The notes beneath the pieces are model-generated. The model had not been told where the DNA came from, did not search any database, and saw only the letters and a program-made list of their open reading frames with translations. From contig CAVTQP010000001.1 in assembly GCA_963736925.1 (NCBI GenBank), positions 134,159 to 198,158 of the forward strand: a stretch of DNA of 64,000 nucleotides, in the 5' to 3' direction. The stretch comes from an uncultured Actinomycetes bacterium. Lineage in GTDB: Bacteria > Actinomycetota > Acidimicrobiia > Acidimicrobiales > CAVTQP01. How positions within the stretch are numbered: the first letter of the stretch is position 1; every line of letters begins with the position of its first letter. The translations under genes were made by a program, and so were the position numbers. This document shows, piece by piece, positions 19,841-44,973 of this stretch.

Positions 19841-21648
19841 GGATCGACGCTAGCACCCATGCCTGGTTGGCGATCCTCCACCGAGGGTGCAGGAGGGCTC
19901 GCACATGCACGCCGGCACAGCTCCCGGTCCGCGAACCACGGTCGCAGCGTCAGCCGGGCAGGCGGCAGGTGCCCGTATATCAAGACTCCCTCGCCGGGGC
20001 GCATGCGCCTGAGCAGGTCCGCTGGAGCCAACCGCCGTGAGGCGAGGGACTCGGTGGTGGAGCGACCCCCGTGGATATCGGTCGTTGTCGAAGCAACAGG
20101 CAGCTCCTCCTCACCCACCAGCGCGCTCACATGGTCGAGCGTGATGGGATCCGAGATGCCGGAGAGAACCACCTTGGAACGGTGGTTGTTCACGACAGTC
20201 GCCGACCGCGTGCCGTATCGGGCCGATATCTGCGCCATGTCCTGCCAGACGGTAACCAGCTGAACACCGTGGCCAGCAGCCGTGGCCGCGATGCTGTCCA
20301 GATCACCAAGGGGGGCGATGTTGGCCGCTTCGTCAAGCACCACGAGCAAGGGCGGCCTCAGTGGATGACCGTCGCGGGTCACACGTGCATAGGCGGCGCT
20401 CATCACTTCCGAGACGAGAGCCGAGAACACAGATTGCAGGCGCCGTTGCTCATGTGAGGGAGCGCACAAGTACAGCGTGTTCGGTCCGCCGTCCAGCAGA
20501 GTCTCCGCATTGATCTCGCTCCTGGATGAAGCGGCCACACTAGGGTCCGCGAAGGCTTCTAGAACGGTCTCGGCCGTCGTGTACACCGAGCTTCGTTGTC
20601 TCTCCTCCCGACGCCAGGTCGCAACCGCTGCCTGAAGCGCCTCGGTGACCCCGAGGTGCTCCAGGATCGTCGACACCTCGCCGACCTCTTGTGTGTCGAC
20701 CCACGCGACAACGTCAGACATCTCCCGCCCGGTGGACGCAGCCGCGAACAGGAGCGGCGCGAGGAGCTTTGCGGCAGTGGCGTGCCAGAAGTCGCCGTCC
20801 GCCAAACCATCCTGGTTGGCCCTGGTCGTCCCGCACAGCGCTGAGGCCACCCGCCGAGCCCCGGCCCAGGTACCAGCGTCCTCCAGGGGAGACCATCCCG
20901 ACGACGGGAGACCGGTGCAGGCGGTGGGGTCGTACAACCACGTCTCGCCACCAGTCCTTCGCCAGTCGATGGTGCTGCGGAGCAGATCACCCTTCACGCT
21001 CGCCGCAAGGACGGGACCGGTCCATTCGAGTATGGCGGGAACGGCGAACCCGGTGGTCTTGTGACTCTGCGTCGGCCCCATGACTATCACCGACTGGCTG
21101 ACCTCGCCGGCCAGCAACAGACGTCCAGACCTTCCGAGGGTCAGCCGGCCGCTACAGGGCCGGGCAACCAAGAGTGGCTTGAGCTCAGCTTTCTCGGCCC
21201 ACTGGGCGCCTCTCGTGGCAGAACGACTCCTTTTCAGCCCGATCCCGCTCCGGCGCCAATCCCTCCTGCGCAGGGAGGCCCCAGACAACCGCCGGCCGCG
21301 CCAGCCGAGGCTTGGCGTCCGCGGCCTCGAGGTCATAAGCCCCAAGGCGCCTGCCAAGACGATGAGCCCGTAGGCGAACAGGAGCTCCGCGACCAGGGTG
21401 GCTGCGAGCAGCAAATAGAAATACGCGGGACCGGGCACCAGTGCCTGGCTCGGACGGGGAAACGCCAGTCGAGGCGCTTCCGGGTGCTGCACCAGCTTGA
21501 CCACGACGAGTCCGGCTTGGCTTGGCGACAACCGAAGCCATCTTGAATGCTCCAGCCGGCTGCCGACCTGAGCGGTCAACCACAGGGTCAATGCGATGCC
21601 GATGAACAAGATCCCGGCCAACTCTCCGGCCCCAATGCCATTCTTCAT
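19837..21648 (-). CDS. type IV coupling protein (TraG/TraD/VirD4 family)
   Basis: It has the Walker A motif VMGPTQSHKTTG, the Walker B motif LLVVLDEAANI and N-terminal TM helices. The start is set at MKNGIGAGEL (ATG 21648); the 179-aa upstream extension of the 782-aa ORF overlaps the preceding gene and looks non-coding. Confidence 0.85.
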   Translation of the reverse strand: MKNGIGAGELAGILFIGIALTLWLTAQVGSRLEHSRWLRLSPSQAGLVVVKLVQHPEAPRLAFPRPSQALVPGPAYFYLLLAATLVAELLFAYGLIVLAGALGLMTSRPRTPSLGWRGRRLSGASLRRRDWRRSGIGLKRSRSATRGAQWAEKAELKPLLVARPCSGRLTLGRSGRLLLAGEVSQSVIVMGPTQSHKTTGFAVPAILEWTGPVLAASVKGDLLRSTIDWRRTGGETWLYDPTACTGLPSSGWSPLEDAGTWAGARRVASALCGTTRANQDGLADGDFWHATAAKLLAPLLFAAASTGREMSDVVAWVDTQEVGEVSTILEHLGVTEALQAAVATWRREERQRSSVYTTAETVLEAFADPSVAASSRSEINAETLLDGGPNTLYLCAPSHEQRRLQSVFSALVSEVMSAAYARVTRDGHPLRPPLLVVLDEAANIAPLGDLDSIAATAAGHGVQLVTVWQDMAQISARYGTRSATVVNNHRSKVVLSGISDPITLDHVSALVGEEELPVASTTTDIHGGRSTTESLASRRLAPADLLRRMRPGEGVLIYGHLPPARLTLRPWFADRELCRRACASPPAPSVEDRQPGMGASVDP

Positions 21649-21692
21649 CCGATCTTGACCGAGCGAACGCGACGAGTGTCCCGCAGCGTTTC

Positions 21693-22800
21693 TCACCCGG
21701 GCACCGAGGCCGGTGACCCGCGGCCCCGAGAGGCCATTCGGGAATCGGTGTCGACCATCGCCCGCTCGGTCGAGGCGAGCCGGTGCTCCACGAGAAACGA
21801 GCGCTGGCCCACCTTCCACAGGGCGACGCCACGTGACAGGAGGGGCAAGAGGCGGGCTTCGGTGTCGGTCAGCCCCAAACACTCCCGTGCAGCCTCCACC
21901 TCTCCGTGAGGCTGTCCATAGATCACGCGGGTCTCGGAGTCCGACAGCAGTCCCTGAGCCAGGCTGACCTGCTCGGAACCGGCGCCACCCGCAGACGCAA
22001 GATCGCTCAGGCGGTGCAGCACGGCCACATTCGCCACGCCGTAGGAGCGTGAGAGCTTCCAGGACGCCCGAAGCCATCTGGCGACGCCAAGGTTGGCCAG
22101 GATCGCCCACGCCTCGTCCACCACCAAGATGCGCCGGTGACTCCCTCCGCGCTCGAGAGCGGCCTGGAGCCATGCCGTGGCACACGCCATCAGCACTCCG
22201 AGAGCTTGAGACCCGTACACCGAGGACAGGTCGAGAACGACAAGCGATGCGTCGAGATCCAGCCCCGGCGTGGTACGCCCGTCGAACATCCCTCGCAGGT
22301 CTCCTGCGACAAGGCGTCGGAGCTCGAGAGCGACATCCCTGCCGTCAGCCAGGAGCGATTCGGGGTCGGTGCGAACTTCTCGTGCCGCCTCCTCTGAGGG
22401 CTCCAACATGGCCTCCACCACGTCGGGGATCGTGGGGACTGCGTCCAAGTGTTCGCCGGCCCGCTTCGCCAGGCTGGCTACGGCTAATTCCGCCGCTGTC
22501 CGCTCTCTTGGAAGTAATGGACGTCCGAGGCAGGCAGTGGCAAGAGCTGCAAGCAGCTCCGCCTGGCGACGGGCTGCTTCCTCGCCATGGAGCTTCCCCG
22601 GGTCGAGAGGATTGAGCTTGACGCTCCCACCCGGTCGGAGGCACACAGGGTCGACTCCCCATGCAGAGGCCAGCGACGCGTACTCGCCCTTGGGGTCGAC
22701 CACCCATGCCTGCTTGCCGAAGGCGGACTGTCGCCAGAGGTAGGTCTTGACGAATGAGCTCTTTCCCCTGCCGATCTGGCCGAGCACCACCATGTTCGGG
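21693..22800 (-). pseudogene. T4SS VirB4/TraC-like ATPase, C-terminal fragment (gene split by the insertion at 22801)
   Basis: It reads ..PNMVVLGQIGRGKSSFVKT (Walker A) and ILVVDEAWAIL (Walker B). The reading frame continues seamlessly from 41265 once the element and one repeat copy are removed. Confidence 0.85.
22785..22800. repeat. target-site duplication, left copy (CACCACCATGTTCGGG)
   Basis: It is an exact 16/16 match to 41249-41264 and abuts the left TIR. The bases flanking the repeat differ on both sides, so its length is exactly 16 bp. Confidence 0.9.
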
Positions 22801-23256
22801 GGCCAAGAGGAAAGAGGGGTGCAGAAATGCGGGTCTACCGTCTAAAACCCCTGCTCACGGCCCATTTCCGCCCACGCCGACCTGACGCCCCGTCAGATCC
22901 GCTGTCGGAAGGGCCCCCGCAGGGACTACGCCCCACCCTACCAGCCAAAACCCCCCTCTCCGCTCCCAGCTGGCCCCCTCAGGCTGGCTCAGGCCCCCCA
23001 TGTCGTCCTGTCGTCCCTCAGGGGCTCCCGTAGCGCCCCGTGGAGGCCGGTGGTAGGCCAGCTCCCCTCAGGCCCTCTGACGGCCCCTGAGCCGCCCCTC
23101 GGGAGGCCGTCTAGGCCAGGAGGGAGCCTGGCGGAGGTGCCGTCCACCGCCAGGTCGTCAGTCGGCCTCGATGTGTTCCCGGGTCAGGCGTTCGCCGCCC
23201 GTCGAAGGATGAGCCTTCAGTCAGCTGTTCGAGGCCGGGGTGCCGTCGGAGCGGTA
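22801..23256. repeat. left terminal inverted repeat (456 bp)
   Basis: It equals the reverse complement of 40793-41248. In my hand alignment the differences are one substitution (position 16) and two compensating single-base indels. It contains three CCCTCAGG copies at 22976, 23025 and 23065. Confidence 0.9.
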
Positions 23257-23408
23257 GCCGGCCCAATACCGCCCTGCTTGGGCGAAAATCGAGGTGCCGA
23301 ACTTCCGCCAGCTCGCCTTGCAGCCCGGCGGCGTCGTCGTCCGAGTCCTTGCGCAGGGTGGCAAGGATCAGGTTTACGTCGGGCCTGTGACGGCCGGGGA
23401 TGCGCTAG

Positions 23409-23621
23409 CTAGTGCTGGGACGGCCGGCGGCGCAGCGACTCGGCGACCTCCCGGCCTCGCTCCGCCTGCTCTTCCCGGGCACGCCGGCGAGAGGCTTTTT
23501 CCTCTGGCGTCTCCGGATAGACGACCACGGTGGGCTTGCCGTGGCTGTCCTTGTCGAGCACTTGTCTGGTCATCCATCCTCCCTTGGCATCATCCATTCT
23601 ACGGCTTGGGGTATCAGCCAA
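23409..23621 (-). CDS. hypothetical small protein
   Basis: 70-aa ORF with a charged C-terminus. It overlaps the 3' end of the upstream GAF-like gene. Support is weak. Confidence 0.3.
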   Translation of the reverse strand: MADTPSRRMDDAKGGWMTRQVLDKDSHGKPTVVVYPETPEEKASRRRAREEQAERGREVAESLRRRPSQH

Positions 23622-24892
23622 GCCAGACCATCGGCTAGCTGGGCTAAGACCTCGACACCGCCGTCGTCGAAGAACCCGTCATCTTCCCGCCCGATGGCCG
23701 TGAGGACGCCGATCGGTGTACCCCTTGCGCCCCGAATAACCGTGGCGGCAACAGTTGCGAACATGCGATAACGCCGCTGTTGGATGGCGGTGAGACCGTG
23801 CTCAGAGCTAGAAACGCCTTCCCCGGTGACTACAAAGGTGCCATCGGGGCTTTCCCACGCCTTGCCGGTAGCGCCAGCTCCCGAGGGAAAGATGGCCGGG
23901 TCCTCGAAGCTCAGGGCAGGAGGGAATACCGGAATGAGAAACCTCTGATCGGGGGTCGGCCCGTAGACCGTTAGGTGGTACTGCTCGGGAAGGCCGCCGA
24001 TCCAAGGGACCAGCAGGCTTCGGAACTGATCGCTGATAGCGGCTCGTTGCACAGCGAGTACCGCAGAGCGCGAGTCTTGCTCGACTGCCTCGTGAAGCAA
24101 ACGGTCAGCCCTAGACGTGAGCCACACGGCACCGACAGCGATGCCTAGCCAGCCGATGAGCACGAGCGATCGGCTCCAGGCAGGCCAGTCGGCCCACGAC
24201 GGAAAGACTGCGAACACGGTGGGGACCACGACTAGCAGGACGCCGAGGAAGACGGGGATGAGGAGGCGTTGCCGACGAGGCTGGCGCCTCGGCAGGTGCG
24301 GCCTAATCACTGCCCTCCGTAGGTCCCTCCCCAGCGGTACTCCTTGGCCTCGGCTCCAGTGATGGCGCCCGCCTGCATGGCTTCTTCGTGCTCGATCACT
24401 GACCGCTGCTGGTCTTGGCGGCGTTACAGCCTGGGACGCTTGTTGAATCTCCGAGCCGCCGTTGGTGATCTCCTCGGTTGCCCGCTGCACCTGAGACACG
24501 TTGTTGTTGTCGATCCCCTGCACGCAATCCTCGGCGCCCTGCTGCCAGTCCGAGAGGCCGGTGTGCCAGTGCTCGGCCGTGGTCGGGTCGGGGATGGCCG
24601 GCAAAGCGAGGGCGGTCTGTAGGTCGTCCTGGAACTTTTGGCAATCCGAGGCAACGGCCGATACGTTTCCGCCCTGCCCGTCGGTGCTGATCTTTTGGGC
24701 GTCAGCCACGACGGTTGCGAAGATCGGCGCATTCGTCTGTGCCCATGCGCGCATGGCGTCGTAGGAGCTGGTAGTGCTCGTCGTGGGTGCCGTCGTGGTC
24801 GTCGTTGTGCGGGCGGTGGTGGGTGTGGAGCTGCCACAGGCCGCCATGGCTAGGGCCGCGAGCCCCGCTGCTGCCACTGCTGCTCTCCTCAT
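23570..24892 (-). CDS. lipoprotein module plus 2-TM/GAF-like module (one ORF, possibly two genes)
   Basis: It has the lipobox LAALAMAAC and a Thr-rich linker, then two TM helices (LLIPVFLGVLLVVVPTVFAVF and LVLIGWLGIAVGAVWL) and a C-terminal GAF-like fold. An internal GTG at 24310 sits in a GTGA junction with a short ORF in another frame. Confidence 0.55.
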   Translation of the reverse strand: MRRAAVAAAGLAALAMAACGSSTPTTARTTTTTTAPTTSTTSSYDAMRAWAQTNAPIFATVVADAQKISTDGQGGNVSAVASDCQKFQDDLQTALALPAIPDPTTAEHWHTGLSDWQQGAEDCVQGIDNNNVSQVQRATEEITNGGSEIQQASQAVTPPRPAAVSDRARRSHAGGRHHWSRGQGVPLGRDLRRAVIRPHLPRRQPRRQRLLIPVFLGVLLVVVPTVFAVFPSWADWPAWSRSLVLIGWLGIAVGAVWLTSRADRLLHEAVEQDSRSAVLAVQRAAISDQFRSLLVPWIGGLPEQYHLTVYGPTPDQRFLIPVFPPALSFEDPAIFPSGAGATGKAWESPDGTFVVTGEGVSSSEHGLTAIQQRRYRMFATVAATVIRGARGTPIGVLTAIGREDDGFFDDGGVEVLAQLADGLAWLIPQAVEWMMPREDG

Positions 24893-25175
24893 GGGTGTCC
24901 TCCCGTTTGGTGCCCGCTGCGAGGGGTTGCTGGGAATGTCGTCAGGGCTCGGCCTTTTCTTGATGCCCAGCAGGGCAGTTTCCTAGCCATCGGCCGGGCT
25001 CGATGGCGAACACCTCGGCGTAGTGAGGCATGGCCCGGTTCTAGGCCAATCTGTGACGGGGGCAATCCCAAGAACCACAACCCGAAGGGTTAGACCTGCA
25101 GTTTTGGCAAAAGCGACTACGGCTGAAACTTATTGACGCTTCAGTGCCGATTGCAATCGACCGATATATGGGAGC

Positions 25176-25643
25176 GTGACAGCTCAGCGCATGGGGCAAA
25201 GGGTGCTTTACGCCGGCACGGTCGTGTTGGCCGTTGTCCTCGGTGCGTGCACTACCTCTCCGAAGGCTACCCCCGCGTCGACGACGCCCTCCAGTGCCCC
25301 CGCTACGGCAGCTCCAGCAGCGACGAGCAAGGCGCCATCGACAACTGCTGCGCCAAAGGTCTTGCTCTCTCAGCAAGGATCGGGCACAGCGACTACTGCT
25401 GACTTCGTTGCACCGACCGATTGGAATCTGGCTTGGACCTATGACTGTTCAAACTTTGGACAGTCAGGCAACTTCACCGTGACTGTTATGAATAAGACAG
25501 GAGCCAACGCGGAGCTTTCAGACCAGCCCGTAAATCAGTTGGGAATGAGTGGTAACTCGGTCGAGCACTATCATGCCGGAGGCGACGTGTACCTGACTGT
25601 CTCCTCCGAATGCAACTGGACGATCAAGGCGACCGCCGCCTAA
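25176..25643 (+). CDS. secreted lipoprotein, unknown function
   Basis: It has the signal peptide and lipobox VVLGAC, followed by a Pro/Thr/Ala-rich linker and a beta-rich domain. Confidence 0.6.
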   Translation: MTAQRMGQRVLYAGTVVLAVVLGACTTSPKATPASTTPSSAPATAAPAATSKAPSTTAAPKVLLSQQGSGTATTADFVAPTDWNLAWTYDCSNFGQSGNFTVTVMNKTGANAELSDQPVNQLGMSGNSVEHYHAGGDVYLTVSSECNWTIKATAA

Positions 25644-25707
25644 CAAAGGATCAACGGAGCGCGGCCGGTTCTTTAGCACCGTAGCTCCTGTGTGTGATCC
25701 TGTCCCC

Positions 25708-26397
25708 ATGTGCGGCCGCTTCACAAACACCCAGTCCCGCTATGACCTGGAGAAGTATTTCCAGAACGTCGTCGAGACCGCCGGCAGGGAGCTAAAGCCG
25801 AAGTGGAACGTGGCTCCCACCCAAGACGTTTACGCGGTGACGAGCACAGAAGATGGAGAGTCGAGACGGTTAGGCACGTTCCGGTGGGGCTTGGTGCCGA
25901 GCTGGGCCAAAGACGCCGCGGTCGGCAACAAGATGATCAACGCCCGAGCCGAGACCGTCTCCACCAAGCCGGCGTATCGCAGGGCGATTGTCACGAGGCG
26001 CTGTCTCATCCCCGCCGATGGGTTCTACGAATGGAAGCGGGCAGCAGGCGCCAGGAAGACAAAGCAGCCCTTCTATATCCACACTGCCGATGGCTCTCCG
26101 CTGGCGTTCGCCGGGCTGTGGGAGGTGTGGCAGGACCCGGAGGGTGATCCGCTCTACTCGTGCTCAATCGTCACAACCGGAGCCAACAAGGCCATGAGCA
26201 AGGTCCACAACCGCATGCCCGTCATCGTCCAACCTGACGACTGGGACGAATGGCTGGCTCCCGAGAAGTTGCGCGACAAGGAGCTGAAGCGACTCCTCTC
26301 AGCGGCTCCCGAGGACCTGTTGGTGCTCGACCCGATCAGCAACAGGGTGAACAACCCGAGGAATGACGGACCCGAGTTGGTCGAGGTGGAGCGCTAG
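25708..26397 (+). CDS. SOS-response-associated peptidase (SRAP/YedK/HMCES family, abasic-site sensor)
   Basis: MCGRF has the N-terminal catalytic Cys2. Further motifs are WNVAPTQ, RWGLVPSWAKD, NARAETV and LIPADGFYEW. The start is set at ATG 25708. Confidence 0.9.
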   Translation: MCGRFTNTQSRYDLEKYFQNVVETAGRELKPKWNVAPTQDVYAVTSTEDGESRRLGTFRWGLVPSWAKDAAVGNKMINARAETVSTKPAYRRAIVTRRCLIPADGFYEWKRAAGARKTKQPFYIHTADGSPLAFAGLWEVWQDPEGDPLYSCSIVTTGANKAMSKVHNRMPVIVQPDDWDEWLAPEKLRDKELKRLLSAAPEDLLVLDPISNRVNNPRNDGPELVEVER

Positions 26398-27086
26398 CGG
26401 AAAGTTGCCCGTGAGGCGACGTTGTCGGCGATTTCGCTTACGAGCTCATTGGGTATGCCTGCGGTCGAGAACACACCGATTCCGACCTCCATTGGGCCAT
26501 TGATGAAATCCACGTAGTCAGAGAAGTACGTGGTGCCATCGTTACACACGATGTTGGAACGAAGACCGAACGTCGGGTTGCCTTCAGCTGAATCAGAGAA
26601 GCGTGAGAAGTCGATGTGGCCGCCTTGGGCGCAGTTGCTCACGATAGCCGGCCCCCAGTTTGCCTTCTGGCAATCCTCGTACCGTGGTGCGAGATAGCCA
26701 GCAAAGTCTTGGCGGGCGAAGGATTCGGACGACCACACGGAAGTTATTGAAGAAGCGAACATCTTGTTGTTGCCTTGAGCCTGGTAGGTCGGTGAGGTGA
26801 CCGATGCCAACGGATTCGGAATGGTTATGCCGAGGCATTGGTTGACGTTTGGTCCGGGCGCCACCGGCGGGTTCGATGCCGTTTGGATTTGCCATGGCCC
26901 GGGCAGATCCGAGAGTCGCAGGCTGACCTGACGAGCTGCCTTATATGCCTTCGGCTCACTCGAAGTGATGCTGCTCCTCTTTACAGATGTCAAGGTCGTT
27001 CCAGACGATCCGGATGAGCTGGTCACCCCACATGCCGCGAGCGCCAAGGACAAGAGCATTAGCAGGAGCGCCGATTTCCTTCCCAT
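26394..27086 (-). CDS. secreted lipoprotein, unknown function
   Basis: It has the lipobox LSLALAAC and a Ser/Gly/Thr linker. The ORF is 230 aa. Confidence 0.6.
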   Translation of the reverse strand: MGRKSALLLMLLSLALAACGVTSSSGSSGTTLTSVKRSSITSSEPKAYKAARQVSLRLSDLPGPWQIQTASNPPVAPGPNVNQCLGITIPNPLASVTSPTYQAQGNNKMFASSITSVWSSESFARQDFAGYLAPRYEDCQKANWGPAIVSNCAQGGHIDFSRFSDSAEGNPTFGLRSNIVCNDGTTYFSDYVDFINGPMEVGIGVFSTAGIPNELVSEIADNVASRATFR

Positions 27087-27465
27087 TCCTCGTCATGTCG
27101 GCAGGATGCGAGTGGAACATAAGAGGCCGAAGAGGCCGCTGGTCGCGTTATCTAGCTGCCGGCTTCGTCGTAGGCCGGATCGCGGGCGTGGGCGATCCTG
27201 TCGAACTCGGTGTTCGACAACCTCCTCCTTGGGGGGGTCCCAGGCGAACAGGTGGGCGTGCTCGACCGCCTCCCACCTCGCATCGTCCACGTCGAGCGCC
27301 CAGGCACGACCGGTCAGCCGATGCAGTGTCTCGGCGAGGCCCGCTGGCGAGGCCGCTTCACGTCACCGGGCAGCGCGACTCCCTTCGGAGCAGCCTCAGC
27401 GCTCCGAGCGGTGAGTTACCACGTCGACTGGTGGTAGCCGGCTAGGACGCGTCAGCGTCCAGCGA

Positions 27466-28177
27466 GTGGGAGCGGGCAATCTGATTGCCTCTGGGCGGGA
27501 CGCAGATATCTTCGAGTACGGACCGGGGCTCGTACTGCGCAAAACTCGTGATGGGCGGTCCATCGAGACTGAGGCCCGTGTCATCGACTACGCCGAGCGC
27601 GCGGCTACCCGGTTCCCGCGATACACGAAGTGCGCGCTGGTGGTGCTGAGATCGTGATGGAACAGGTCGATGGCGCCGTGATGATGGAGCCGATGGCGAA
27701 GCAGCCATGGACAATGCCGCGGTATGTTTCGATGCTCGCGGACTTGCACGACCAGCTACACGACATCGCCGCGCCTGACTCGGCTCCCACAGTTGCCAGG
27801 CGGCGGCGACCGACTCGTCCACCTCGACCTTCATCCATTGAATGTTTTACTGTCGTCACGGGGACCGTCGTCATCGACTGGACCAACGCGGCACGCGGTG
27901 CGGGGCTGACCGACGTCGCTCTCACCTACGTCTTGCTCACCTGTCCAGGATGCCAGCGTCGCCGATCGTGCAGGTACTCGCGAAACCCGGCCGATGGTAC
28001 CTCGCACGAGCGTTCGCCAGCCGCTACCGCGGTACGGCCTTCGACGCTCACCTGGCTGAGGCAGCCGAGCTCAAAGCGCTCGACTCCAACATGGACGCCG
28101 AGGAGGTGAGAGCCTGCCATCGGCTGGCAGCGCACGCTCGGCAACAGGCGTCAAGGAAAAAGGACGTGCCAGCCTGA
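27466..28177 (+). pseudogene. aminoglycoside/choline-kinase-type phosphotransferase (APH fold), frameshifted
   Basis: The kinase-fold pieces are spread over four ORFs and all three frames. They are GRDADIFEYGPGLVLRK, VMEQVDG, LVHLDLHPLNVLL (catalytic loop) and VVIDWTNAARG. Confidence 0.7.
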
Positions 28178-38230: not shown

Positions 38231-38629
38231 CGATGGCCAACAAGCGCAAGTGCGGCTGCGAGACGCCGTGGGCGCAGACCCGACCCCGCTGATTTCCGAA
38301 GAGCCCTAATCGGGGCCGAGCGGCGAGACGCGTGCGGCCGTGGACGAAACCGACGTGGTGGTGGTTGCTATCAACCTCGTCCTCAGTCTCGCCCTCAAAG
38401 CGACACACGAGACGCTCACCTTTACGACCAGCTGGACGGGACCGAGATGGTGCTACGTAGGACGCCCGTTCGGCCGGGAAGGCCCACGGCACGTCGTCTC
38501 CGCACCATGTGTCGCCCGGGTTCAACCCGGCCGCCCTCCCGCCGGCAGTTGGGTGGCATGGGTGGCTCTGTTGGGCGTGGCGGTTCTAGTCGTGGTGTGC
38601 GTGAAGAGGGATAGAACGGAGCGGACGGA

Positions 38630-38887
38630 ATGAACGAGAAAGAACCCAACCCTCAGCACGTCGACGGCCCCCTAATCGAGGACCTGGTCCGGGCCATAAC
38701 CGGCACCCTCCGGGAGTCCCCCCACGTCGTGGCAGACGACCTGGAAGCTGGCACGTTGGACCTGGTGCGGGGTGTCATGCCCGCTTTGGAACAGCACGAC
38801 CGGCGGCCCCGCCAGGAAGAGGACGAAGCCAAGCGGGAGCGGTTCCACCGGGCCCAAGCGGCCTACCGAAACCGGCGGCAAGGGTGA
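38630..38887 (+). CDS. hypothetical protein
   Basis: 85-aa ORF with normal GC and a charged C-terminus. No motif was recognised. Confidence 0.35.
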   Translation: MNEKEPNPQHVDGPLIEDLVRAITGTLRESPHVVADDLEAGTLDLVRGVMPALEQHDRRPRQEEDEAKRERFHRAQAAYRNRRQG

Positions 38888-39029
38888 ACGGGGACCAGGC
38901 GCTGCCAGACCCCCCGTGGCGCCCCCGAAACCCATCTTGCGGCCGATTCCCCCCTCCCCGACGAGGTATCGCCCAACCAACCTACCGAAAAATGGGTTTG
39001 ACCAGCCCTAACGCCGGCGACCCCAGCAG

Positions 39030-39098
39030 GATCGCTAGGCGTAGAGGCCAGATCGCCAGACGTGGCGGCCAGATCGCCAGGTAGAATCGCTAGACGTA
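39030..39098. repeat. iteron-like imperfect direct repeats
   Basis: There are four copies of about GATCGC(C/T)AG(A/G)(C)GT(A/G)G, at 39030, 39051, 39072 and 39086. Spacing is 21, 21 and 14 nt. The array ends at the ATG of the downstream wHTH/P-loop gene. Confidence 0.55.
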
Positions 39099-40828
39099 TG
39101 ACCAGCACTTTTGCCGAAAGAGCCGAGATGGGCAGGGCGAATGAGAAAGCCGTCCTCACCGTACTTGTCCACGCTGGAGGAGCCGGCCTAGCCCCCGCCC
39201 AGCTGGCCGAACAAGCGGGCCTCCCGGCCTCCACCCTGAGAGCTGCCGTGGCCCGCCTAGAGGGGCGCCACCTGGTCGGCCGAGAGGGAAAACGCCGAAT
39301 CTTCGCCACCGCCGCTGGACGGGCTGAAGCCGCCTCCCACCTCCCCGGAACGTCCCTGGAGGGCGGGATCGAGGCCTCTATCAATCTCCTCCCCTCCGAG
39401 GCTCTTAGGGCCTGGGTGCGCCTCGTCCTGTCCGCCGCCATAGCCCGCCACCACCTCCGATCCATTCGGCCCTATGGGTGGCCGTCCGGCATAGCCGTAG
39501 GGCCGACAAAAACCGGGAAATCGACCGCCGCTCTGGTCGTTATTCACGCCTTGGGGCTGGATCCCGCAGGCGCCATAAGGCCTGTTTCCGGCGAGACGGA
39601 GCGCTCGCTTTTGGGCCGGCGGGAACAGCTGCCGGGCGGGCGGTGGCGCCTTATCCCGGCGGAGCCCCTGACCCTGCCAGCCTTGGTGCTGGAGGAGTGG
39701 GATCACAACAAGACGGACACGGCGGTACGCCGCGCGGTCCTCAAGCTTGCTCAAGGGGACGCCCGTGTCGCCGGGGAGGGGCTCGACACGTTCGACGTGG
39801 TGCCGACCGCCGTCCTCTTAGCCAACGGGAGCCCGGCGCAGGTCCCGGAGGAATATCGCCGACGAGCGTTTGTAGTCGACACCACGCCCCTACGGCCGCT
39901 GCTCGTGGACACGATCGGGCCAGCCGCCCGTGCCCTGGCACGGACCGGGGCCGTCCCCGCCCTTCCCCTTGGCACCCTGCGCCCACCGTGCGAACGGCTA
40001 CCGGACGGCATTCTCGACGAGGCAATGTCCTATCTAAGGGACGGGCTAACCGATCGAGGGTGGGAGCTGGCCGACGCGCAGTCCATCGAAGCGGCCGCCT
40101 TGGGCAGGGCTGCACTGGCCGGGGTGGACCTCCGACAGGCCGTCCTCGCCTCAGTGGCCGACTACCTGACAACTGCGGCAACCGTGGGGGAGGCGGCGCC
40201 CGGGCGAATGCCGGCGGCCTTGCTCGATGCGCTCGGGGGACGGCTGGCGCCGGACCCCACCGAGGCTCAGGCTGAAGCGGCCGACGTGCAGCAGCGGCGC
40301 ACGCAACGGGACCAGGAAGAACGCCGAGAGACCCATCAGCTCACGGCTGCACGAGCCGCACTCGCCCAACGCCTAGAAGACGCCGGAAGGCGTATTCGTT
40401 CGGGCGTGCCGGAGGACCTGCGGGACATAGCGGCGGGCGTGCGCGCATGGCTGTCTGCTCTTCGACGTGAGGCGCTCGACAGCCGAAGCAGGGAAGCCCT
40501 CGAACACGTTGCGGAGGAAGCGGAAGAGCCGCTGGCACACGCTCAGCGGATCTTGACGGAGCGGGCCGCACGTAAGGAGCAGATGAGGCTGCCGTTACCC
40601 GGCAAGCCCCTCACTGTGTCAACGGGTTCCGAACGGTCCCCCGTCGACACGTTGCTGTCGCTCGGATTGGTGAAGCCCGACGCACCTCCCGGGGTCGGGT
40701 ACCGTGCCACCGACCCCTCCTTCCGCGGTGGCCTCGTCGTCTTCCCCAACGACGGGTGGGACGATCCCGGTGTGGCGGCCGTCATGCAGCGGTACCGCTC
40801 CGACGGCACCCCGGCCTCGAACAGCTGA
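39098..40828 (+). CDS. winged-helix plus P-loop NTPase protein (possible replication/partition initiator of the element)
   Basis: It has an N-terminal MarR-like wHTH (LAPAQLAEQAGLPASTLRAAVARLEGRHLV), the Walker A motif VGPTKTGKST and a Walker-B-like LPALVLEEWD. Its last 36 nt lie inside the right TIR. Confidence 0.6.
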   Translation: MTSTFAERAEMGRANEKAVLTVLVHAGGAGLAPAQLAEQAGLPASTLRAAVARLEGRHLVGREGKRRIFATAAGRAEAASHLPGTSLEGGIEASINLLPSEALRAWVRLVLSAAIARHHLRSIRPYGWPSGIAVGPTKTGKSTAALVVIHALGLDPAGAIRPVSGETERSLLGRREQLPGGRWRLIPAEPLTLPALVLEEWDHNKTDTAVRRAVLKLAQGDARVAGEGLDTFDVVPTAVLLANGSPAQVPEEYRRRAFVVDTTPLRPLLVDTIGPAARALARTGAVPALPLGTLRPPCERLPDGILDEAMSYLRDGLTDRGWELADAQSIEAAALGRAALAGVDLRQAVLASVADYLTTAATVGEAAPGRMPAALLDALGGRLAPDPTEAQAEAADVQQRRTQRDQEERRETHQLTAARAALAQRLEDAGRRIRSGVPEDLRDIAAGVRAWLSALRREALDSRSREALEHVAEEAEEPLAHAQRILTERAARKEQMRLPLPGKPLTVSTGSERSPVDTLLSLGLVKPDAPPGVGYRATDPSFRGGLVVFPNDGWDDPGVAAVMQRYRSDGTPASNS

Positions 40829-41248
40829 CTGAAGGCTCATCCTTCGACGGGCGGCGAACGCCTGACCCGGGAACACATCGAGGCCGACTGACGACCTGGC
40901 GGTGGACGGCACCTCCGCCAGGCTCCCTCCTGGCCTAGACGGCCTCCCGAGGGGCGGCTCAGGGGCCGTCAGAGGGCCTGAGGGGAGCTGGCCTACCACC
41001 GGCCTCCACGGGGCGCTACGGGAGCCCCTGAGGGACGACAGGACGACATGGGGGGCCTGAGCCAGCCTGAGGGGGCCAGCTGGGAGCGGAGAGGGGGGTT
41101 TTGGCTGGTAGGGTGGGGCGTAGTCCCTGCGGGGGGCCCTTCCGACAGCGGATCTGACGGGGCGTCAGGTCGGCGTGGGCGGAAATGGGCCGTGAGCAGG
41201 GGTTTTAGACGGTAGACCCGCATTTCTGACCCATCTTTCCTCTTGGCC
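40793..41248. repeat. right terminal inverted repeat (456 bp)
   Basis: It is the reverse complement of 22801-23256, as described for the left TIR. Confidence 0.9.
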
Positions 41249-41264
41249 CACCACCATGTTCGGG
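41249..41264. repeat. target-site duplication, right copy (CACCACCATGTTCGGG)
   Basis: It is an exact match to 22785-22800. Confidence 0.9.
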
Positions 41265-41431
41265 TTGGTGAGCACCCCTCTCAGATACAGCTCGAAAGGG
41301 TCGTAGCTGAACGATCCGCCCAGGAGGTCGCGCCCGATCAGTACCCCGCGGCTTCCCAACCCTCCGTCGGACATGCACGGATACGCCGCGCCGAGGTGGG
41401 CGGTCGTGGCGCGGTGAGCCGGCAGACTCAC
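41249..41431 (-). pseudogene. T4SS VirB4/TraC-like ATPase, N-terminal fragment
   Basis: Its GTG at 41431 overlaps the upstream stop (GTGA). It reads VSLPAHRATTAHLGAAYPCMSDGGLGSRGVLIGRDLLGGSFSYDPFELYLRGVLTNPNMVV and then runs into the TIR. Confidence 0.85.
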
Positions 41432-42919
41432 GCCAGGCCCCGCCCGAGCGGGAGGGTCCATGTGAACGCCTCATCCTGTTGGCCGTACAGGCGCCTGAGC
41501 TCGAGGCGCGACTGAGCCGCGACTTGCTCGACCCGAGTGCACTCCTTCTCAAGTGACTCCTCTGACGCCGAGGTCACGGTCACATACCCGGTGAAGCGAA
41601 ATTGGGCGTGACCATCCGCGAGCTCCACCTCCCGCCTCACTACTCCTTCCTCCTCACGACGCCGGCGAGCCGTAGCCATGAAGCCTCCTCTACGCCGTAG
41701 CTCGGAGTCCGCCGTGTCGGCTGTACGAGCCTGTTCGGCCTCCCGTGCCGCCTTGGCCGGGCTGACGGGTTCCATCGTCATGGAGACTGTTCTGCGGGCC
41801 TCGACTTGCAATAGGAGGGGGCCGAGAAAGTCCGGGCCGACGTCGACCCTGGGCCACTCGGCGATCCAGTAGGTGGCATGCCACGTGGATTCGGTGCGAT
41901 AGCACGACCAGGACACTTCCGCCGCGTGGGGCCATGCTGCTGGCGACTCGGGCGAGGGCGGCCGTTCGCCGGCCGGCGCCGGCCTGTGCTCGACAGCCGA
42001 TCTGAAGGCGCGACACAGCGACCTCGGCGACAGGCAGCCCTCGACGGTGAGCTCGGCCGAGGCCAGCTGAGCACTCACAGAGCGCACCTCCTGTTCCAGC
42101 AGGGTGCACGATTCGAGATCGGCAGCCGCCTCGGGTCTGGATCTCTCTCGTCGGCGCGACCGCACGGAGATCGCCAGCATGACCTCGTGCCGCTTGCTCA
42201 CCGGCTTCGCCTCTGCAAGAAGGGCTGAATACGAGCGCACACATTCCGACCACGGGGTCTGCTTCATCTCCTCGTCGAGGTAGTTGAGAACAGCAGCGCC
42301 GTTGTCGGGCAGCCCCCGCTCCACCCACTGAAGCCTGTGGATGGCCGAGCTCTCTCGCGCCAACCCGGCCAGCATGGCGGCCCAGCATGCAATCCGATGA
42401 TGCTTCTCCTCTTCACCCAGGAGGGCGAAGCTGTGGCCCCTCGAGCGCGACAACGGCCGTATAGGTACGTGCCCTGGCGTCTTTGACGACTCCCATCCGC
42501 AGCGAGCCCTGCGCGACGGGTGGACTGATGACGCGACAGCCCCGGAGCACCTCGGGAGAGTCGCACTCGGACGGGACCGGCTGGGCTGCGTCAAGCCCAA
42601 CCCCCCAAACCGACCCATACACAGCTGCCGAGGCCAGGTACCGGCGCCTGCCGCGCGCCTGCCTGATGAACCAGACGACCACCAACGGCAGCCATTGCTC
42701 GGCTGTGCGCCCCCGTATCGGCCAGCAGGCGATGACGATTCCGGCGCACACGGACAGAACCGCCACCGACAATCCGGTCAGGCTCGCCCGGCCCCGCAGC
42801 ACGGCGACACCGACCACGAGCCCTACGCTGACCGCAGCGATCTGGCCGCCGCGCCACCCGGCTATCAATCCCCTTCGCTCCAGTGGTCCGAAGCGGTAGC
42901 GAGTCTGGTCGACGGCCAC
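41428..42919 (-). CDS. SCO6880-like T4SS membrane-associated protein (1-nt frameshift near 42437)
   Basis: The N-terminus TRYRFGPLERRGLIAGWRGGQIA and its TM helices are in the frame of 42919. The rest (HSFALLGEEEKHHRIACWAAML...) is in the frame of 42618. The switch occurs at a C-run at 42437-42440. Confidence 0.65.
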
Positions 42920-42928
42920 TTCTCTGCC

Positions 42929-44362: not shown

Positions 44363-44649
44363 TTGATTCCCACGCCGGTGTTGAAGAAGAAGTTCACCAC
44401 CCCGGGAGCCGCCCCGATTATGAGGGCGGCCAGGCCCGAGATCAGGACCGTTCGCCGACCCAGATATGACTGCTGGTAGTTGTTGGAGTGAGCACCTAGG
44501 GCCCACGCGGCCGCACCGACCAGCAATCCCACCAGGGCGAGCACCAATGCCCACCAGCCGATGCCGTTGGTGAGGCTTTGCAGGGCGGAGCCGCCGGGAA
44601 GGTTGCCGGAGTTCGGTTGGAGGCTGACCCCTGCCGCTGACAGCAACAT
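44359..44649 (-). CDS. small two-TM pilin-like protein (DUF6112/TrbC-like)
   Basis: 96-aa ORF. LQSLTNGIGWWALVLALVGLLVGAAAWALGAHSNNYQQSY..LISGLAALIIGAAPGVVNFF matches my memory of the conserved first gene of actinobacterial T4SS-like clusters. Confidence 0.6.
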   Translation of the reverse strand: MLLSAAGVSLQPNSGNLPGGSALQSLTNGIGWWALVLALVGLLVGAAAWALGAHSNNYQQSYLGRRTVLISGLAALIIGAAPGVVNFFFNTGVGIK

Positions 44650-44973
44650 TTCGAGACCTCCTTCGAGCGAGACGATGGATCGGAGCCAACGCCAGGGTAA
44701 CCGCTATTTGATAGATTCTCAATATATTTCATGTATTTTTCTGGCCGCGAGGAGCCAAATGCCTGACCGAGCAACGCGGCTCACGGGGGCGAGCGGTGCG
44801 GGCGCGTGAGTGGCCGGCCTGATTGTCGCCCGCCTGGCCGAGTTAAGCCTGCGTTCACCCCATAGCCATGACGGCGTCTCTTGGCCCTCGTAGGGTTGGC
44901 GCTTGCGGCGCGCCGTCATACTGACCACGGCGCCAGCCGCCCTTGGCGGGTGGACCTGCTGTCGAGGAGGACC

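What the first reader, a model, noticed from the sequence alone, without database searches (positions are those of the whole stretch)
22785..41264. 18.4-kb casposon-like element (Cas1 + PolB, 456-bp TIRs, 16-bp TSD) inserted inside a conjugation ATPase gene
Seen in the sequence: (1) 22801-23256 is the reverse complement of 40793-41248, and in my alignment the two differ by 1 substitution and 2 single-base indels. (2) A perfect 16-bp direct repeat, CACCACCATGTTCGGG, abuts both ends. (3) Deleting 22801-41264 joins 41431..41265 to 22800..21693 into one uninterrupted 1275-nt ORF. It reads ..FELYLRGVLTNPNMVVLGQIGRGKSSFVKT.., so the insertion sits four codons upstream of the Walker A motif of a VirB4-like ATPase. 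(4) The only recombinase-like gene inside is a full-length Cas1 homologue, and a family-B polymerase is present. Established knowledge: Cas1 + PolB + TIRs + TSD defines casposons, with reported TSDs of about 14-15 bp as I recall. Inference: this is a recent casposase-mediated insertion, a mobile element nested in and inactivating a conjugative T4SS operon. Described casposons favour tRNA or EF-2 3' ends, so a mid-gene target is unusual.
Basis: partly seen in the sequence, partly recalled or inferred. Interest (0 to 1): 0.9.

Follow-up and report, generated by a model that had tools for sequence, protein, structure and literature searches.

The report
Decayed casposon splitting a secretion ATPase gene
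This is a genuine 18.4-kb casposon, a transposon that inserts using a Cas1 enzyme related to the one CRISPR uses, and it has landed inside a secretion-system ATPase gene; its own DNA polymerase gene is dead, so it is a defective new member of a known bacterial casposon family.

Summary
The physical observation holds. The TIRs are 456 bp and match at 454 of 455 aligned bases, with two 1-nt indels. A perfect 16-bp direct repeat flanks them. Removing the element restores a 424-aa VirB4-like ATPase. Intact homologues at up to 75% identity read straight through the junction, and one syntenic relative (L085) shows the empty site.

The element is a casposon of the bacterial family-3 type:
- Its Cas1 keeps the catalytic residues and has a C-terminal HTH.
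- Its TIR terminus, GGGCCAAGAGGAAAGAGGGG, aligns with the GGGATAGGAGATAG termini of about 20 relatives I delimited.
- Its TSD fits the family's 14-bp rule: a 14-bp core plus 1 nt of TIR overlap on each side.
- No other recombinase was found.

- PolB is a pseudogene, with 7 frameshifts, 10 in-frame stops and reduced GC. The accessory gene upstream of it is also decayed. The Zn ribbon of cas1 lies out of frame.
- The host cluster is a conserved chromosomal T4SS-like cluster. Nothing shows it to be conjugative.

The interrupted ATPase halves carry no lesions and the TIRs and TSD are near perfect. PolB therefore probably died before this insertion, which implies a PolB-independent or trans-assisted move.

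A mid-gene target is not unique in this family: three actinobacterial relatives sit at the same codon of tadA.

Verdict: new member of a known kind, of moderate interest.

The parts
22785..22800 (.). Left target-site duplication (16-bp apparent repeat; 14-bp core at 22786-22799)
   Evidence: Exact copy of 41249-41264 and the only two copies in the window. Relatives have 14-bp TSDs with 0-3 nt of TIR overlap.
22801..23256 (+). Left terminal inverted repeat (456 bp). The tip (G)GGCCAAGAGGAAAGAGGGGTGCAGAAATGC is the presumed casposase binding end.
   Evidence: 454/455 identical to the reverse complement of 40793-41248. The tip aligns with the family consensus GGGATAGGnGATAGAGGG..CAAAAnTGC.
23570..24892 (-). 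Cargo ORF of 440 aa, possibly a membrane protein, function unknown
   Evidence: Open ORF. Only a weak, sub-threshold DUF2157 match. No NCBIfam or PADLOC match.
25708..26397 (+). Cargo gene: intact SRAP (YedK/HMCES-like abasic-site peptidase), starting MCGR
   Evidence: PF02586, E=3e-80, matching profile positions 1-214 of 214. The translation shows the MCGR start. Not found in related casposons.
28520..29194 (+). Cargo gene: class III nucleotide cyclase domain plus YHS domain (224 aa)
   Evidence: Guanylate_cyc E=2e-6 and YHS E=1.7e-8. Weak match to the cyclase part of LipJ.
29241..29660 (-). Small gene (139 aa) immediately downstream of cas1, conserved in at least one relative
   Evidence: tblastn hit at 45.6% identity, E=3e-19, to the ORF just downstream of cas1 in L029. 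No confident Pfam match.
30170..31738 (-). cas1 (casposase) ORF. The catalytic domain and the C-terminal HTH are in frame. The Zn ribbon (about 30505-30567) is encoded in the +1 frame.
   Evidence: PF01867 E=1.9e-34. Invariant E183, H267, D279 and E282 are present. TIGR00287 scores 92 bits against a 71.7 cutoff. QCAGCGVELAHHTRTWCPDCF is seen only in frame +1. The core is 37-39% identical to named family-3 Cas1 proteins.
32011..32241 (+). Intact 76-aa ribbon-helix-helix-like ORF (NikA/MobC-like) between cas1 and the PolB operon
   Evidence: ORF. NikA-like E=6.5e-4, below the Pfam cutoff.
32648..33209 (+). Decayed remnant of the roughly 190-aa accessory gene that lies between PolB and cas1 in 55 related loci
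   Evidence: An HMM of the 57-member cluster hits frame +2 at E=1.6e-9. About 9 in-frame stops fall within the 187 aligned codons.
33724..36903 (+). Family-B DNA polymerase pseudogene, including the C-terminal HTH part
   Evidence: tblastn of relatives' 976-1025-aa proteins gives hits in alternating frames. The HMM path needs 7 frameshifts and 10 in-frame stops, and 21 of 84 conserved columns are changed. ExoI (DTETT), motif A (DxxSMY), motif B (KIFANAGSYG) and motif C (FCDTDS) are recognisable. The family profile hits Pol alpha, Pol II and archaeal PolB in the PDB at motifs B and C, E=3e-5. PHROG 'DNA polymerase' E=5.5e-9 for the L005 homologue.
37502..37840 (-). Fragment of a metallo-beta-lactamase-fold gene (probable cargo pseudogene)
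   Evidence: Lactamase_B E=3e-5, covering profile positions 37-147 of 196 only. Weak similarity to an ORF in L059.
39062..40828 (+). 588-aa ORF with a weak N-terminal winged-HTH (MarR-like) match, running into the right TIR
   Evidence: MarR_2 E=3e-4, sub-threshold. 40% identity over 130 aa to a 645-aa protein in L017, which carries MarR_2 and AAA_5 matches and lies beside a related cas1.
40793..41248 (-). Right terminal inverted repeat
41249..41264 (.). Right target-site duplication
41265..41431 (-). 5' part of the interrupted VirB4-like ATPase gene (with the TSD it encodes codons 1-61)
   Evidence: Reconstruction, alignment with intact homologues and tblastn.
21693..22800 (-). 3' part of the interrupted ATPase gene. 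It is left as a 366-aa ORF that starts at the native Met59 codon inside the TSD and keeps Walker A.
   Evidence: ORF 21693-22793. It is identical to database protein P0086. The alignment shows no lesion.
19837..21692 (-). Downstream host gene: VirD4/TraG-like coupling protein
   Evidence: T4SS-DNA_transf E=1.4e-38, TraG-D_C and TrwB_AAD_bind. Same position as in the empty-site locus L085.
41428..44722 (-). Upstream host genes: SCO6880-family (EccE-like) and SCO6881-family (TrbL_3-like) proteins
   Evidence: NCBIfam NF042935 E=1.4e-65 and NF047967 E=1.3e-11. The syntenic genes in L085 carry EccE and TrbL_3 matches.

Best explanation
This is an 18.4-kb casposon of the bacterial family-3 type. 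It integrated by Cas1 (casposase)-mediated strand transfer at a 14-bp stagger into the coding sequence of a VirB4-like ATPase. That gene belongs to a conserved chromosomal T4SS-like cluster of an Acidimicrobiales-like actinobacterium. Gap repair produced the 14-bp duplication, which appears as 16 bp because the GGG-initial TIR overlaps it by 1 nt on each side.

Shown:
- the TIRs and the TSD;
- exact restoration of the target ORF, and an empty site in a syntenic relative;
- a Cas1-family protein with its catalytic residues, closest to family-3 casposases;
- a core syntenic with relatives: cas1 | accessory gene - PolB;
- a TIR terminus that aligns with the family's termini;
- no other recombinase.

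Also shown: the copy is degenerate. The PolB operon is a run of pseudogenes with lowered GC, and the cas1 Zn ribbon is out of frame.

Inferred: the interrupted host gene halves have no lesions and the TIRs and TSD are almost perfect, whereas PolB carries 17 disabling lesions. PolB was therefore probably already dead when the element moved here. The last transposition would then have needed only Cas1 plus the TIRs, with host or trans-supplied DNA synthesis. Cas1 could have come from this copy before its indels arose, or from another copy.

Consequence: the ATPase loses its conserved N-terminal 58 residues. A 366-aa remnant starting at Met59 could at most be expressed from within the element.
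For: - TIR, TSD and ORF restoration.
- Target gene real and collinear in homologues.
- Empty site with identical synteny, 15 of 16 bases equal to the TSD.
- Cas1. Core identity to the named family-3 casposon proteins AceAut-C1 (37%), StrAlb-C1 (34%) and NitAL212-C1 (30%), and to the Saccharopolyspora spinosa Cas1 (39%): using sequences from the supplement of PMC4046053.
- Cas1-PolB linkage in about 55 of 84 related loci.
- Relatives have TIRs, 14-bp TSDs and GGGATAGG termini.
- PolB identity of the roughly 1000-aa family. Motifs.
- PolB decay. GC and GC3 loss.
- Accessory-gene remnant.
- cas1 Zn ribbon out of frame.
- No other recombinase in any ORF of at least 100 aa.
- No CRISPR array, and no tRNA gene within 12 kb of the element.
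- Lesion contrast: 17 lesions in 2.9 kb of PolB against 0 in 1.275 kb of the split ATPase. About 7.5 would be expected at the same density, so the Poisson probability of zero is about 6e-4 (my calculation).
Against: - No intact source copy or helper was found. The nearest Cas1 in 5.8 billion proteins is 43% identical, and the TIR has no exact match in JGI metagenome contigs.
- The cas1 of this copy lacks an in-frame Zn ribbon, so self-mobilisation in its present state is doubtful.
- TIR identity could be kept by gene conversion between the arms. A 16-bp TSD is a weak clock.
- The decayed block has a sharp boundary at the cas1 start and a strand-asymmetric C deficit. That could instead reflect locally accelerated mutation after insertion.
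- Some frameshifts could be assembly errors. The TIR arms themselves differ by 2 indels but only 1 substitution.
Confidence: 0.8

Rival explanations
1. One reading: an autonomous, fully equipped casposon (working Cas1 plus working PolB) that recently inserted using its own machinery.
For: Near-identical TIRs, a perfect TSD and an undecayed target gene. The cas1 ORF is open with its catalytic residues.
Against: PolB needs 7 frameshifts and has 10 in-frame stops. The conserved accessory gene upstream carries about 9 stops. The cas1 Zn ribbon is out of frame.
Confidence: 0.04
2. An intact casposon inserted, and its core (31.7-38 kb) then decayed unusually fast. Possible causes are strand-biased cytosine deamination of a transcribed or single-stranded region, or host-directed mutagenesis. 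Meanwhile the TIRs were kept alike by gene conversion between the arms.
For: - The decayed block is contiguous, starts sharply at the cas1 start, and recovers GC gradually towards 39 kb.
- The + strand has C 0.27 and T 0.21, against C 0.33-0.36 and T 0.15-0.18 in relatives' PolB coding strands.
- C>T is the commonest single-step change at conserved columns, 7 of 14.
- The accessory-gene remnant keeps detectable homology yet about 5% of its codons are stops.
Against: - GC3 of PolB is still 0.65, so this is moderate rather than saturating change.
- The stop codons do not map cleanly to CAG, CAA, CGA or TGG ancestors.
- In relatives PolB is already 4.4 ± 3 GC points below cas1.
- Cargo genes on both sides are intact.
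- No close intact relative exists from which to infer a mutation spectrum.
Confidence: 0.13
3. Part of the apparent decay, especially the indels in cas1 and PolB, is an assembly or sequencing artefact of the source genome.
For: - The two TIR arms differ by 2 single-base indels but only 1 substitution, and one indel lies in a C5/C6 run.
- The cas1 Zn ribbon is perfectly preserved in the +1 frame, with all four Cys.
- Several relatives from long-read MAGs also show split PolB matches.
Against: - Ten in-frame stops, 25% of conserved PolB columns changed and an 11-13 point GC drop are substitutions, not indels.
- Every flanking host gene examined is uninterrupted: the 424-aa ATPase, the VirD4-like gene, SRAP and others.
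Confidence: 0.1
4. The TIRs and TSD belong to some other transposon type, and the decayed Cas1-PolB block is merely passenger DNA.
For: The casposon core is largely dead, and 456-bp TIRs are long.
Against: - No other transposase or integrase in any ORF of at least 100 aa.
- A 14-16-bp TSD is casposon-like.
- The TIR tip aligns with the termini of about 20 Cas1-PolB elements that have 14-bp TSDs.
- Published family-3 casposons have TIRs up to 602 bp and TSDs of 14-18 bp (PMC4046053).
Confidence: 0.02

Closest known systems
Family 3 (bacterial) casposons: AceAut-C1, StrAlb-C1, NitAL212-C1, HenMar-C1 (Krupovic et al. 2014, PMC4046053)
   Same: - A Cas1-solo with a zinc-binding domain and an HTH fused at the C-terminus, as described for AceAut-C1.
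- An RNA-primed-type PolB with an HNH gene upstream of it. The HNH gene was seen here only in relatives.
- Size 14-20 kb, TIRs 36-602 bp, TSDs 14-18 bp with TIR/TSD overlap.
- The window Cas1 core is 37% identical to AceAut-C1, 34% to StrAlb-C1 and 30% to NitAL212-C1.
   Different: - All four published bacterial elements are intergenic. This one splits a protein-coding gene.
- PolB and an accessory gene are pseudogenes, and the Zn ribbon is out of frame.
- The cargo (SRAP, cyclase-YHS) is not reported for them.
- The nearest sequence relative of any kind is only about 43% identical.
Family 2 archaeal casposons (Aciduliprofundum boonei, Methanosarcina mazei), the experimentally studied casposases
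   Same: Cas1-mediated integration of TIR-flanked DNA that generates 14-15-bp TSDs. The target is defined by the duplicated segment plus an adjacent 'leader-like' motif (PMC9939771). The M. mazei casposase 6opm is among the best PDB matches (E=3e-13).
   Different: They are archaeal. They integrate site-specifically at tRNA 3' ends without damaging the gene. Their casposase has no Zn ribbon of this type. The sequence relationship is distant.
CRISPR adaptation module (Cas1-Cas2)
   Same: A homologous Cas1 fold with the same catalytic E/H/D/E residues. Staggered integration followed by repeat duplication.
   Different: No CRISPR array in the window and no cas2 match among the element ORFs scanned. 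Subtype-specific Cas1 models score far below their cutoffs. CRISPR-type Cas4-Cas1 fusions appear only at E>1e-6 over about a third of the protein.
Other self-synthesizing elements: pipolins and Polintons
   Same: Integrated mobile elements that carry their own family-B polymerase.
   Different: Those use tyrosine or rve-type integrases, and piPolB or protein-primed PolB. Here the only integrase candidate is Cas1.

Membership tests
Casposon (superfamily) | Encodes a Cas1-family integrase with the catalytic residues | tested here: met
   PF01867 E=1.9e-34. TIGR00287 scores 92.3 bits against a 71.7 cutoff. E183, H267, D279 and E282 lie in invariant columns of a 26-sequence alignment.
Casposon (superfamily) | The Cas1 is stand-alone: no CRISPR array and no cas2/cas4 alongside | tested here: met
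   No spaced direct repeats in the 64 kb. No cas2 or cas4 Pfam match among the element ORFs scanned. Rfam finds only 4 tRNAs in the window, the nearest 12.4 kb from the element.
Casposon (superfamily) | Carries a family-B DNA polymerase gene | tested here: met
   A PolB-derived sequence lies at 33724-36903, homologous to the roughly 1000-aa protein linked to cas1 in about 55 loci. That family's profile hits Pol alpha, Pol II and archaeal PolB at motifs B and C (E=3e-5) and PHROG 'DNA polymerase'.
Casposon (superfamily) | The PolB gene is intact, so the element can make its own DNA | tested here: not met
   7 frameshifts and 10 in-frame stops along the HMM path, and 21 of 84 conserved columns changed.
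Casposon (superfamily) | Terminal inverted repeats | tested here: met
   456 bp, 454/455 identical. Within the published range of 25-602 bp.
Casposon (superfamily) | Target-site duplication of about 14-15 bp | tested here: met
   A perfect 16-bp repeat, read as a 14-bp core plus 1+1 nt of TIR overlap. The 20 delimited relatives give 14-17 bp (one apparent 22 bp), counting TIR overlap.
Casposon (superfamily) | No other transposase or integrase in the element | tested here: met
   Pfam scans of all ORFs of at least 100 aa find none.
Casposon family 3 (bacterial) | Cas1 groups with family-3 casposases | tested here: inconclusive
   The best named matches are the family-3 casposases AceAut-C1 (37%), StrAlb-C1 (34%) and NitAL212-C1 (30%), plus the Saccharopolyspora spinosa Cas1 (39%) from the same paper's Cas1 alignment. 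The family-2 casposase 6opm is much more distant. No formal phylogeny with all four families was built.
Casposon family 3 (bacterial) | Cas1 fused to a zinc-binding domain and an HTH (AceAut-C1 arrangement) | tested here: inconclusive
   The HTH is in frame and conserved (P501 and W506 invariant). The Zn ribbon CxxCG..CxxC is present in the DNA but in the +1 frame.
Casposon family 3 (bacterial) | HNH endonuclease gene next to PolB | tested here: inconclusive
   Relatives have it (PHROG HNH E=9.5e-5 for L001; 25 loci). In the window there is only a chance-level trace at about 33345-33413 (E=0.15).
Conjugative T4SS operon (target locus) | VirB4-type ATPase together with a VirD4-type coupling protein | tested here: met
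   P-loop_TraG and AAA_10 on the restored ORF. T4SS-DNA_transf, TraG-D_C and TrwB on the next gene.
Conjugative T4SS operon (target locus) | A relaxase or other mobile-element hallmarks showing that the cluster is part of a conjugative element | tested here: not met
   No relaxase or integrase among the large flanking ORFs scanned, between about 8 and 55 kb. The same cluster sits between the same two-component-system and P450 genes in L085, which suggests a conserved chromosomal cluster.

The most novel reading that the evidence does not exclude
The most novel reading my evidence does not exclude has two parts.
1. Bacterial family-3-like casposons of Actinomycetota integrate sequence-specifically into conserved P-loop strand-plus-glycine segments of secretion or conjugation ATPase genes. 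Examples are tadA at ..RPSRI(I/V)VGEV.. in three loci and this virB4-like gene at ..NPNMVVLGQI... These are gene-disrupting targets, unlike the gene-sparing tRNA and aEF-2 sites of archaeal casposons.
2. PolB-dead copies remain mobile in vivo using Cas1 and the TIRs alone.
Probability: 0.15. Interest if true: 0.75.

Novelty: new member of a known kind. Interest (0 to 1): 0.45.

Why it matters
Casposons are rare. Only 54 reference casposases were in use in 2023 (PMC9966878), and casposons are central to ideas on the origin of CRISPR adaptation. No bacterial (family 3) element has been studied experimentally.

This locus gives a clean filled-site versus empty-site pair for a bacterial casposon, with long TIRs and a 14-bp TSD inside a gene. 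It also shows that a copy with a dead polymerase can still have transposon ends and a target that look fresh. That bears on whether PolB is needed for casposon movement.

The related loci I fetched suggest a large, mostly undescribed population of such elements in soil bacteria. They share conserved termini, and subgroups have distinct target preferences: a GTCAA motif, a tRNA 3' end, and tadA.

Tried and rejected
- Pfam on the individual PolB-region ORFs found no polymerase domain. Pfam, NCBIfam and single-sequence PDB searches on intact PolB homologues from relatives also found nothing. PolB identity came only from a 28-sequence profile against the PDB, from PHROGs and from motifs.
- The source contig could not be retrieved. 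P0001 is not on record, and the genome-contig scan returned no identical locus.
I scanned all ORFs of at least 100 aa instead.
- Test of whether the window's target resembles the tadA target of relatives. A PWM built from three tadA sites ranks the true site 966th of 91,006 positions overall, and 161st for the TSD plus downstream part. This is suggestive only and post hoc, and the element's orientation relative to the gene is opposite. I do not claim it.
- Search for other copies of the TIR in metagenome contigs: none, in two exact-match scans.
- PADLOC on the cargo proteins: no defence-system match.
- Rfam, tRNA and tandem-repeat scans found nothing inside the element beyond two short tandem repeats.
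- Attempt to read a clean deaminase signature from the stop codons: not clean.

Full report
**1. The observation**

A repeat scan and a global alignment confirm that 22801-23256 and 40793-41248 are inverted repeats. Over 456 bp there are 454 identities, 1 mismatch and 2 single-base gaps.

The 16-mer CACCACCATGTTCGGG occurs exactly twice in the 64 kb, directly outside the two arms. The 20-nt TIR tip occurs only at the two ends, against 0 expected in shuffles.

Deleting 22801-41264 gives an uninterrupted 1275-nt ORF on the minus strand, encoding 424 aa that read ..LTNPNMVVLGQIGRGKS... This is far beyond chance.

One refinement concerns the TSD. The base before each arm is G, and related elements all begin GGG and have 14-bp duplications. 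The duplication is therefore best read as 14 bp (ACCACCATGTTCGG) plus a 1-nt TIR/TSD overlap on each side. This kind of overlap was tabulated for published casposons (PMC4046053).

**2. The target**

The restored protein matches P-loop_TraG and AAA_10. It has thousands of homologues of 410-430 aa at up to 75% identity, mostly from Acidimicrobiales, and all are collinear through the junction. P57, N58, M59 and V61, the residues encoded by the TSD, are invariant in the alignment.

The database copy of this gene from the source genome is the truncated 366-aa product (P0086). It starts at the native Met59 codon, which lies inside the TSD.

A metagenome contig, L085, carries the uninterrupted gene in the same gene order:
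- ABC transporter, response regulator, histidine kinase;
- DUF6112, TrbL_3, EccE-like, ATPase, VirD4-like;
- P450.

Its DNA at the site matches the TSD at 15 of 16 bases. So the empty site exists.

In the window, the neighbours are a VirD4/TraG-like coupling protein downstream and SCO6880- and SCO6881-family proteins upstream. Further out lie ordinary chromosomal genes. I saw no relaxase or integrase among the large flanking ORFs I scanned. The conserved synteny argues for a chromosomal T4SS-like cluster rather than a demonstrated conjugative element.

**3. The integrase**

The ORF 30170-31738(-) matches Cas_Cas1 (E=1.9e-34). It passes the generic cas1 NCBIfam model, while all CRISPR-subtype models fall far below their cutoffs.

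Its database relatives are stand-alone Cas1 proteins of 500-640 aa, at no more than 43% identity. CRISPR-type Cas4-Cas1 fusions appear only marginally. In a 26-sequence alignment the catalytic E183, H267, D279 and E282 are invariant, and the C-terminal HTH is conserved. There is no CRISPR-like array in the window.

Against sequences in the supplement of the casposon discovery paper, the core is 37% identical to the AceAut-C1 casposase, 34% to StrAlb-C1 and 30% to NitAL212-C1. All three are family-3 casposons. It is also 39% identical to the Saccharopolyspora spinosa Cas1 that sits between AceAut and StrAlb in that paper's Cas1 alignment.

One flaw stands out. The family's CxxCG..CxxC zinc ribbon (QCAGCGVELAHHTRTWCPDCF) is encoded at about 30505-30567 in the +1 frame relative to the flanking domains. 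The ORF stays open but reads through this segment out of frame. That means at least two indels, or assembly errors.

**4. The polymerase**

No ORF in 33.6-36.9 kb matches a Pfam polymerase.

In relatives, cas1 is accompanied by a divergently transcribed gene of about 1000 aa. This holds for about 55 of the 84 loci I fetched. A 28-sequence profile of that protein hits DNA polymerase alpha, E. coli Pol II and archaeal PolB in the PDB at motifs B and C (best E=3e-5). PHROGs calls it a DNA polymerase. The Exo I, motif A, motif B and motif C signatures are visible.

The window contains this gene only as a wreck. An HMM of the family threads 936 of 1004 columns through eight segments in alternating frames, which means 7 frameshifts. 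There are 10 in-frame stops, and 21 of 84 strongly conserved columns are altered.

Upstream of it, the roughly 190-aa accessory gene found in 55 loci survives as a remnant at 32648-33209, with about 9 stops. HNH is at most a trace.

The block is compositionally shifted:
- GC is 0.574 for PolB and 0.548 for the cas1-PolB spacer, against 0.681 for cas1. That gap of 11-13 points compares with 4.4 ± 3 points in relatives.
- GC3 is 0.65, against 0.75-0.81 for intact genes of the window.
- The coding strand has a deficit of C and an excess of T.

**5. Is it a casposon, and of what kind?**

In the 84 related loci I could delimit about 20 elements of 10-16 kb. They have TIRs of 33-514 bp, a conserved terminus GGGATAGGAGATAG...CAAAAnTGC, and 14-bp TSDs. 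The window's terminus, (G)GGCCAAGAGGAAAGAGGGGTGCAGAAATGC, aligns with these.

The core order, cas1 | small genes - accessory gene - (HNH) - PolB, is the same. Two further genes recur in single relatives: the small gene downstream of cas1 and the 588-aa protein with a winged-HTH-like N-terminus. Pfam scans of every ORF of at least 100 aa found no other recombinase.

Size, TIR length and TSD length fall within the published family-3 values: 14-20 kb, 36-602 bp and 14-18 bp. I therefore file it as a family-3-type casposon, with the reservation that I built no formal tree.

**6. How it got there**

The split ATPase has no lesion in 1275 nt, and the TIR arms differ at only 3 of 456 positions. PolB has 17 disabling lesions in 2.9 kb. 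At PolB's lesion density, about 7.5 lesions would be expected in the ATPase, so the Poisson probability of zero is about 6e-4. The insertion is thus much younger than the death of PolB.

The simplest reading is that a PolB-defective element transposed. It would have used Cas1 and the TIRs, with host or trans-supplied synthesis.

Two alternatives remain:
- Locally accelerated, strand-biased decay after insertion, with TIR homogenisation by gene conversion.
- Partial assembly artefact.

The sharp boundary of the decayed block at the cas1 start and the C-to-T skew keep the first alive. The 2-indels-to-1-substitution ratio between the TIR arms and the perfectly preserved out-of-frame Zn ribbon keep the second alive, for the frameshifts only.

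No helper or sister copy could be found.

**7. The target choice**

Published casposons sit at tRNA or aEF-2 3' ends or in intergenic DNA, and spare the gene. In this family I found several target types:
- Thirteen of 20 TSDs begin GTCAA or end TTGAC, mainly in acidobacterial members.
- One TSD overlaps the 3' end of tRNA-Val (L063).
- Three actinobacterial elements (L009, L032, L035) sit at the same codon of tadA/cpaF (..ALRMRP|SRI(I/V)VGEVR..), beside tadB and tadC in a chromosomal context.

Gene-disrupting insertion into a P-loop ATPase is therefore not unique to the window. The window site resembles the tadA site only modestly (PWM rank 966 of 91,006, or 161 for the TSD plus downstream part). 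The element's orientation relative to the gene is opposite, and its Cas1 is not especially close to those three (36-37% identity). I treat a shared recognition motif as an unproven lead.

**8. Verdict**

The element is a degenerate copy, and the 'conjugative' label for the target is unproven. It is a new member of a known kind. Two modestly novel aspects remain: a mid-gene target, and fresh-looking ends on a PolB-dead element. There is also a wider lead, a large population of family-3-like casposons in soil bacteria with distinct target preferences.

Noticed in passing
L005-L084 (genome-contig loci): At least 543 genomic stretches encode relatives of this Cas1. Most come from soil MAGs of Acidobacteriota, Actinomycetota, Chloroflexota and Eremiobacterota. 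About 55 of the 84 fetched loci keep the roughly 1000-aa PolB divergently upstream. This population is far larger than the 54 reference casposases cited in 2023 (PMC9966878).
   Followed up: partly
L005, L006, L010, L011, L018, L019, L020, L021, L023, L028, L029, L045, L076 (TSD coordinates): Thirteen of the 20 delimited relatives have a 14-bp TSD that begins GTCAA or ends TTGAC. This is a strong target-site motif, seen in either orientation relative to cas1.
   Followed up: partly
L009:2486-2499 and 14502-14515; L032:1351-1364 and 15770-15783; L035:842-856 and 12005-12019: Three actinobacterial casposons interrupt a tadA/cpaF-type (T2SSE) ATPase at the same codon, in the Walker-B-like ..RPSRI(I/V)VGEVR.. 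segment. In L009 the gene sits next to tadB/tadC-like genes in a chromosomal context. In L009 and L035, excision in silico restores an intact ORF; this was not done for L032.
   Followed up: partly
L063:245-260: The TSD of this Acidimicrobiaceae casposon overlaps the last 5 nt of tRNA-Val (175-249). This is the classic archaeal-casposon target type, here in a bacterium.
   Followed up: no
L025 (Tunturiibacter psychrotolerans X4BP1 chromosome), L040 (Tsukamurella soli JCM 17688), L050, L072; also L006, L009, L016, L019, L034, L037, L056, L069, L076, L083: Many relatives also have a PolB with an in-frame stop or with a match split between frames, including two cultured isolates. PolB decay, or long-read indel error in the MAGs, appears common in this family.
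   Followed up: no
window 25708-26397 (+): The casposon carries an intact SRAP (YedK/HMCES-like) gene with the catalytic MCGR N-terminus. None of the related elements has it. Its GC (about 0.59) is below the host level.
   Followed up: partly
window 31740-39000: A contiguous low-GC block (0.54-0.62) with positive GC skew. It starts abruptly at the cas1 start codon and recovers gradually towards 39 kb. The + strand is depleted in C and enriched in T relative to homologous genes in relatives.
   Followed up: partly
window 22975-23100 and 40950-41075: Inside each TIR there are repeated CCCCTCAGG / CCTGAGGGG motifs that form internal imperfect palindromes (inverted-repeat pairs I11 and I12). They may be protein-binding or structural elements of the long TIR.
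   Followed up: no
window 41428-44722 and 19837-22800; L085:4776-10993: The five-gene cluster DUF6112 / TrbL_3-like (SCO6881 family) / EccE-like (SCO6880 family) / short VirB4-like ATPase / VirD4-like is conserved in synteny between a two-component system and a P450 gene in two unrelated assemblies. It may be a chromosomal T4SS-like system of unknown role in Acidimicrobiales.
   Followed up: partly
L001:1362-3197: A reverse-transcriptase (RVT_1) gene, possibly a group II intron, lies between a T2SSE gene and the PolB side of a related casposon. The element's boundaries there were not resolved.
   Followed up: no
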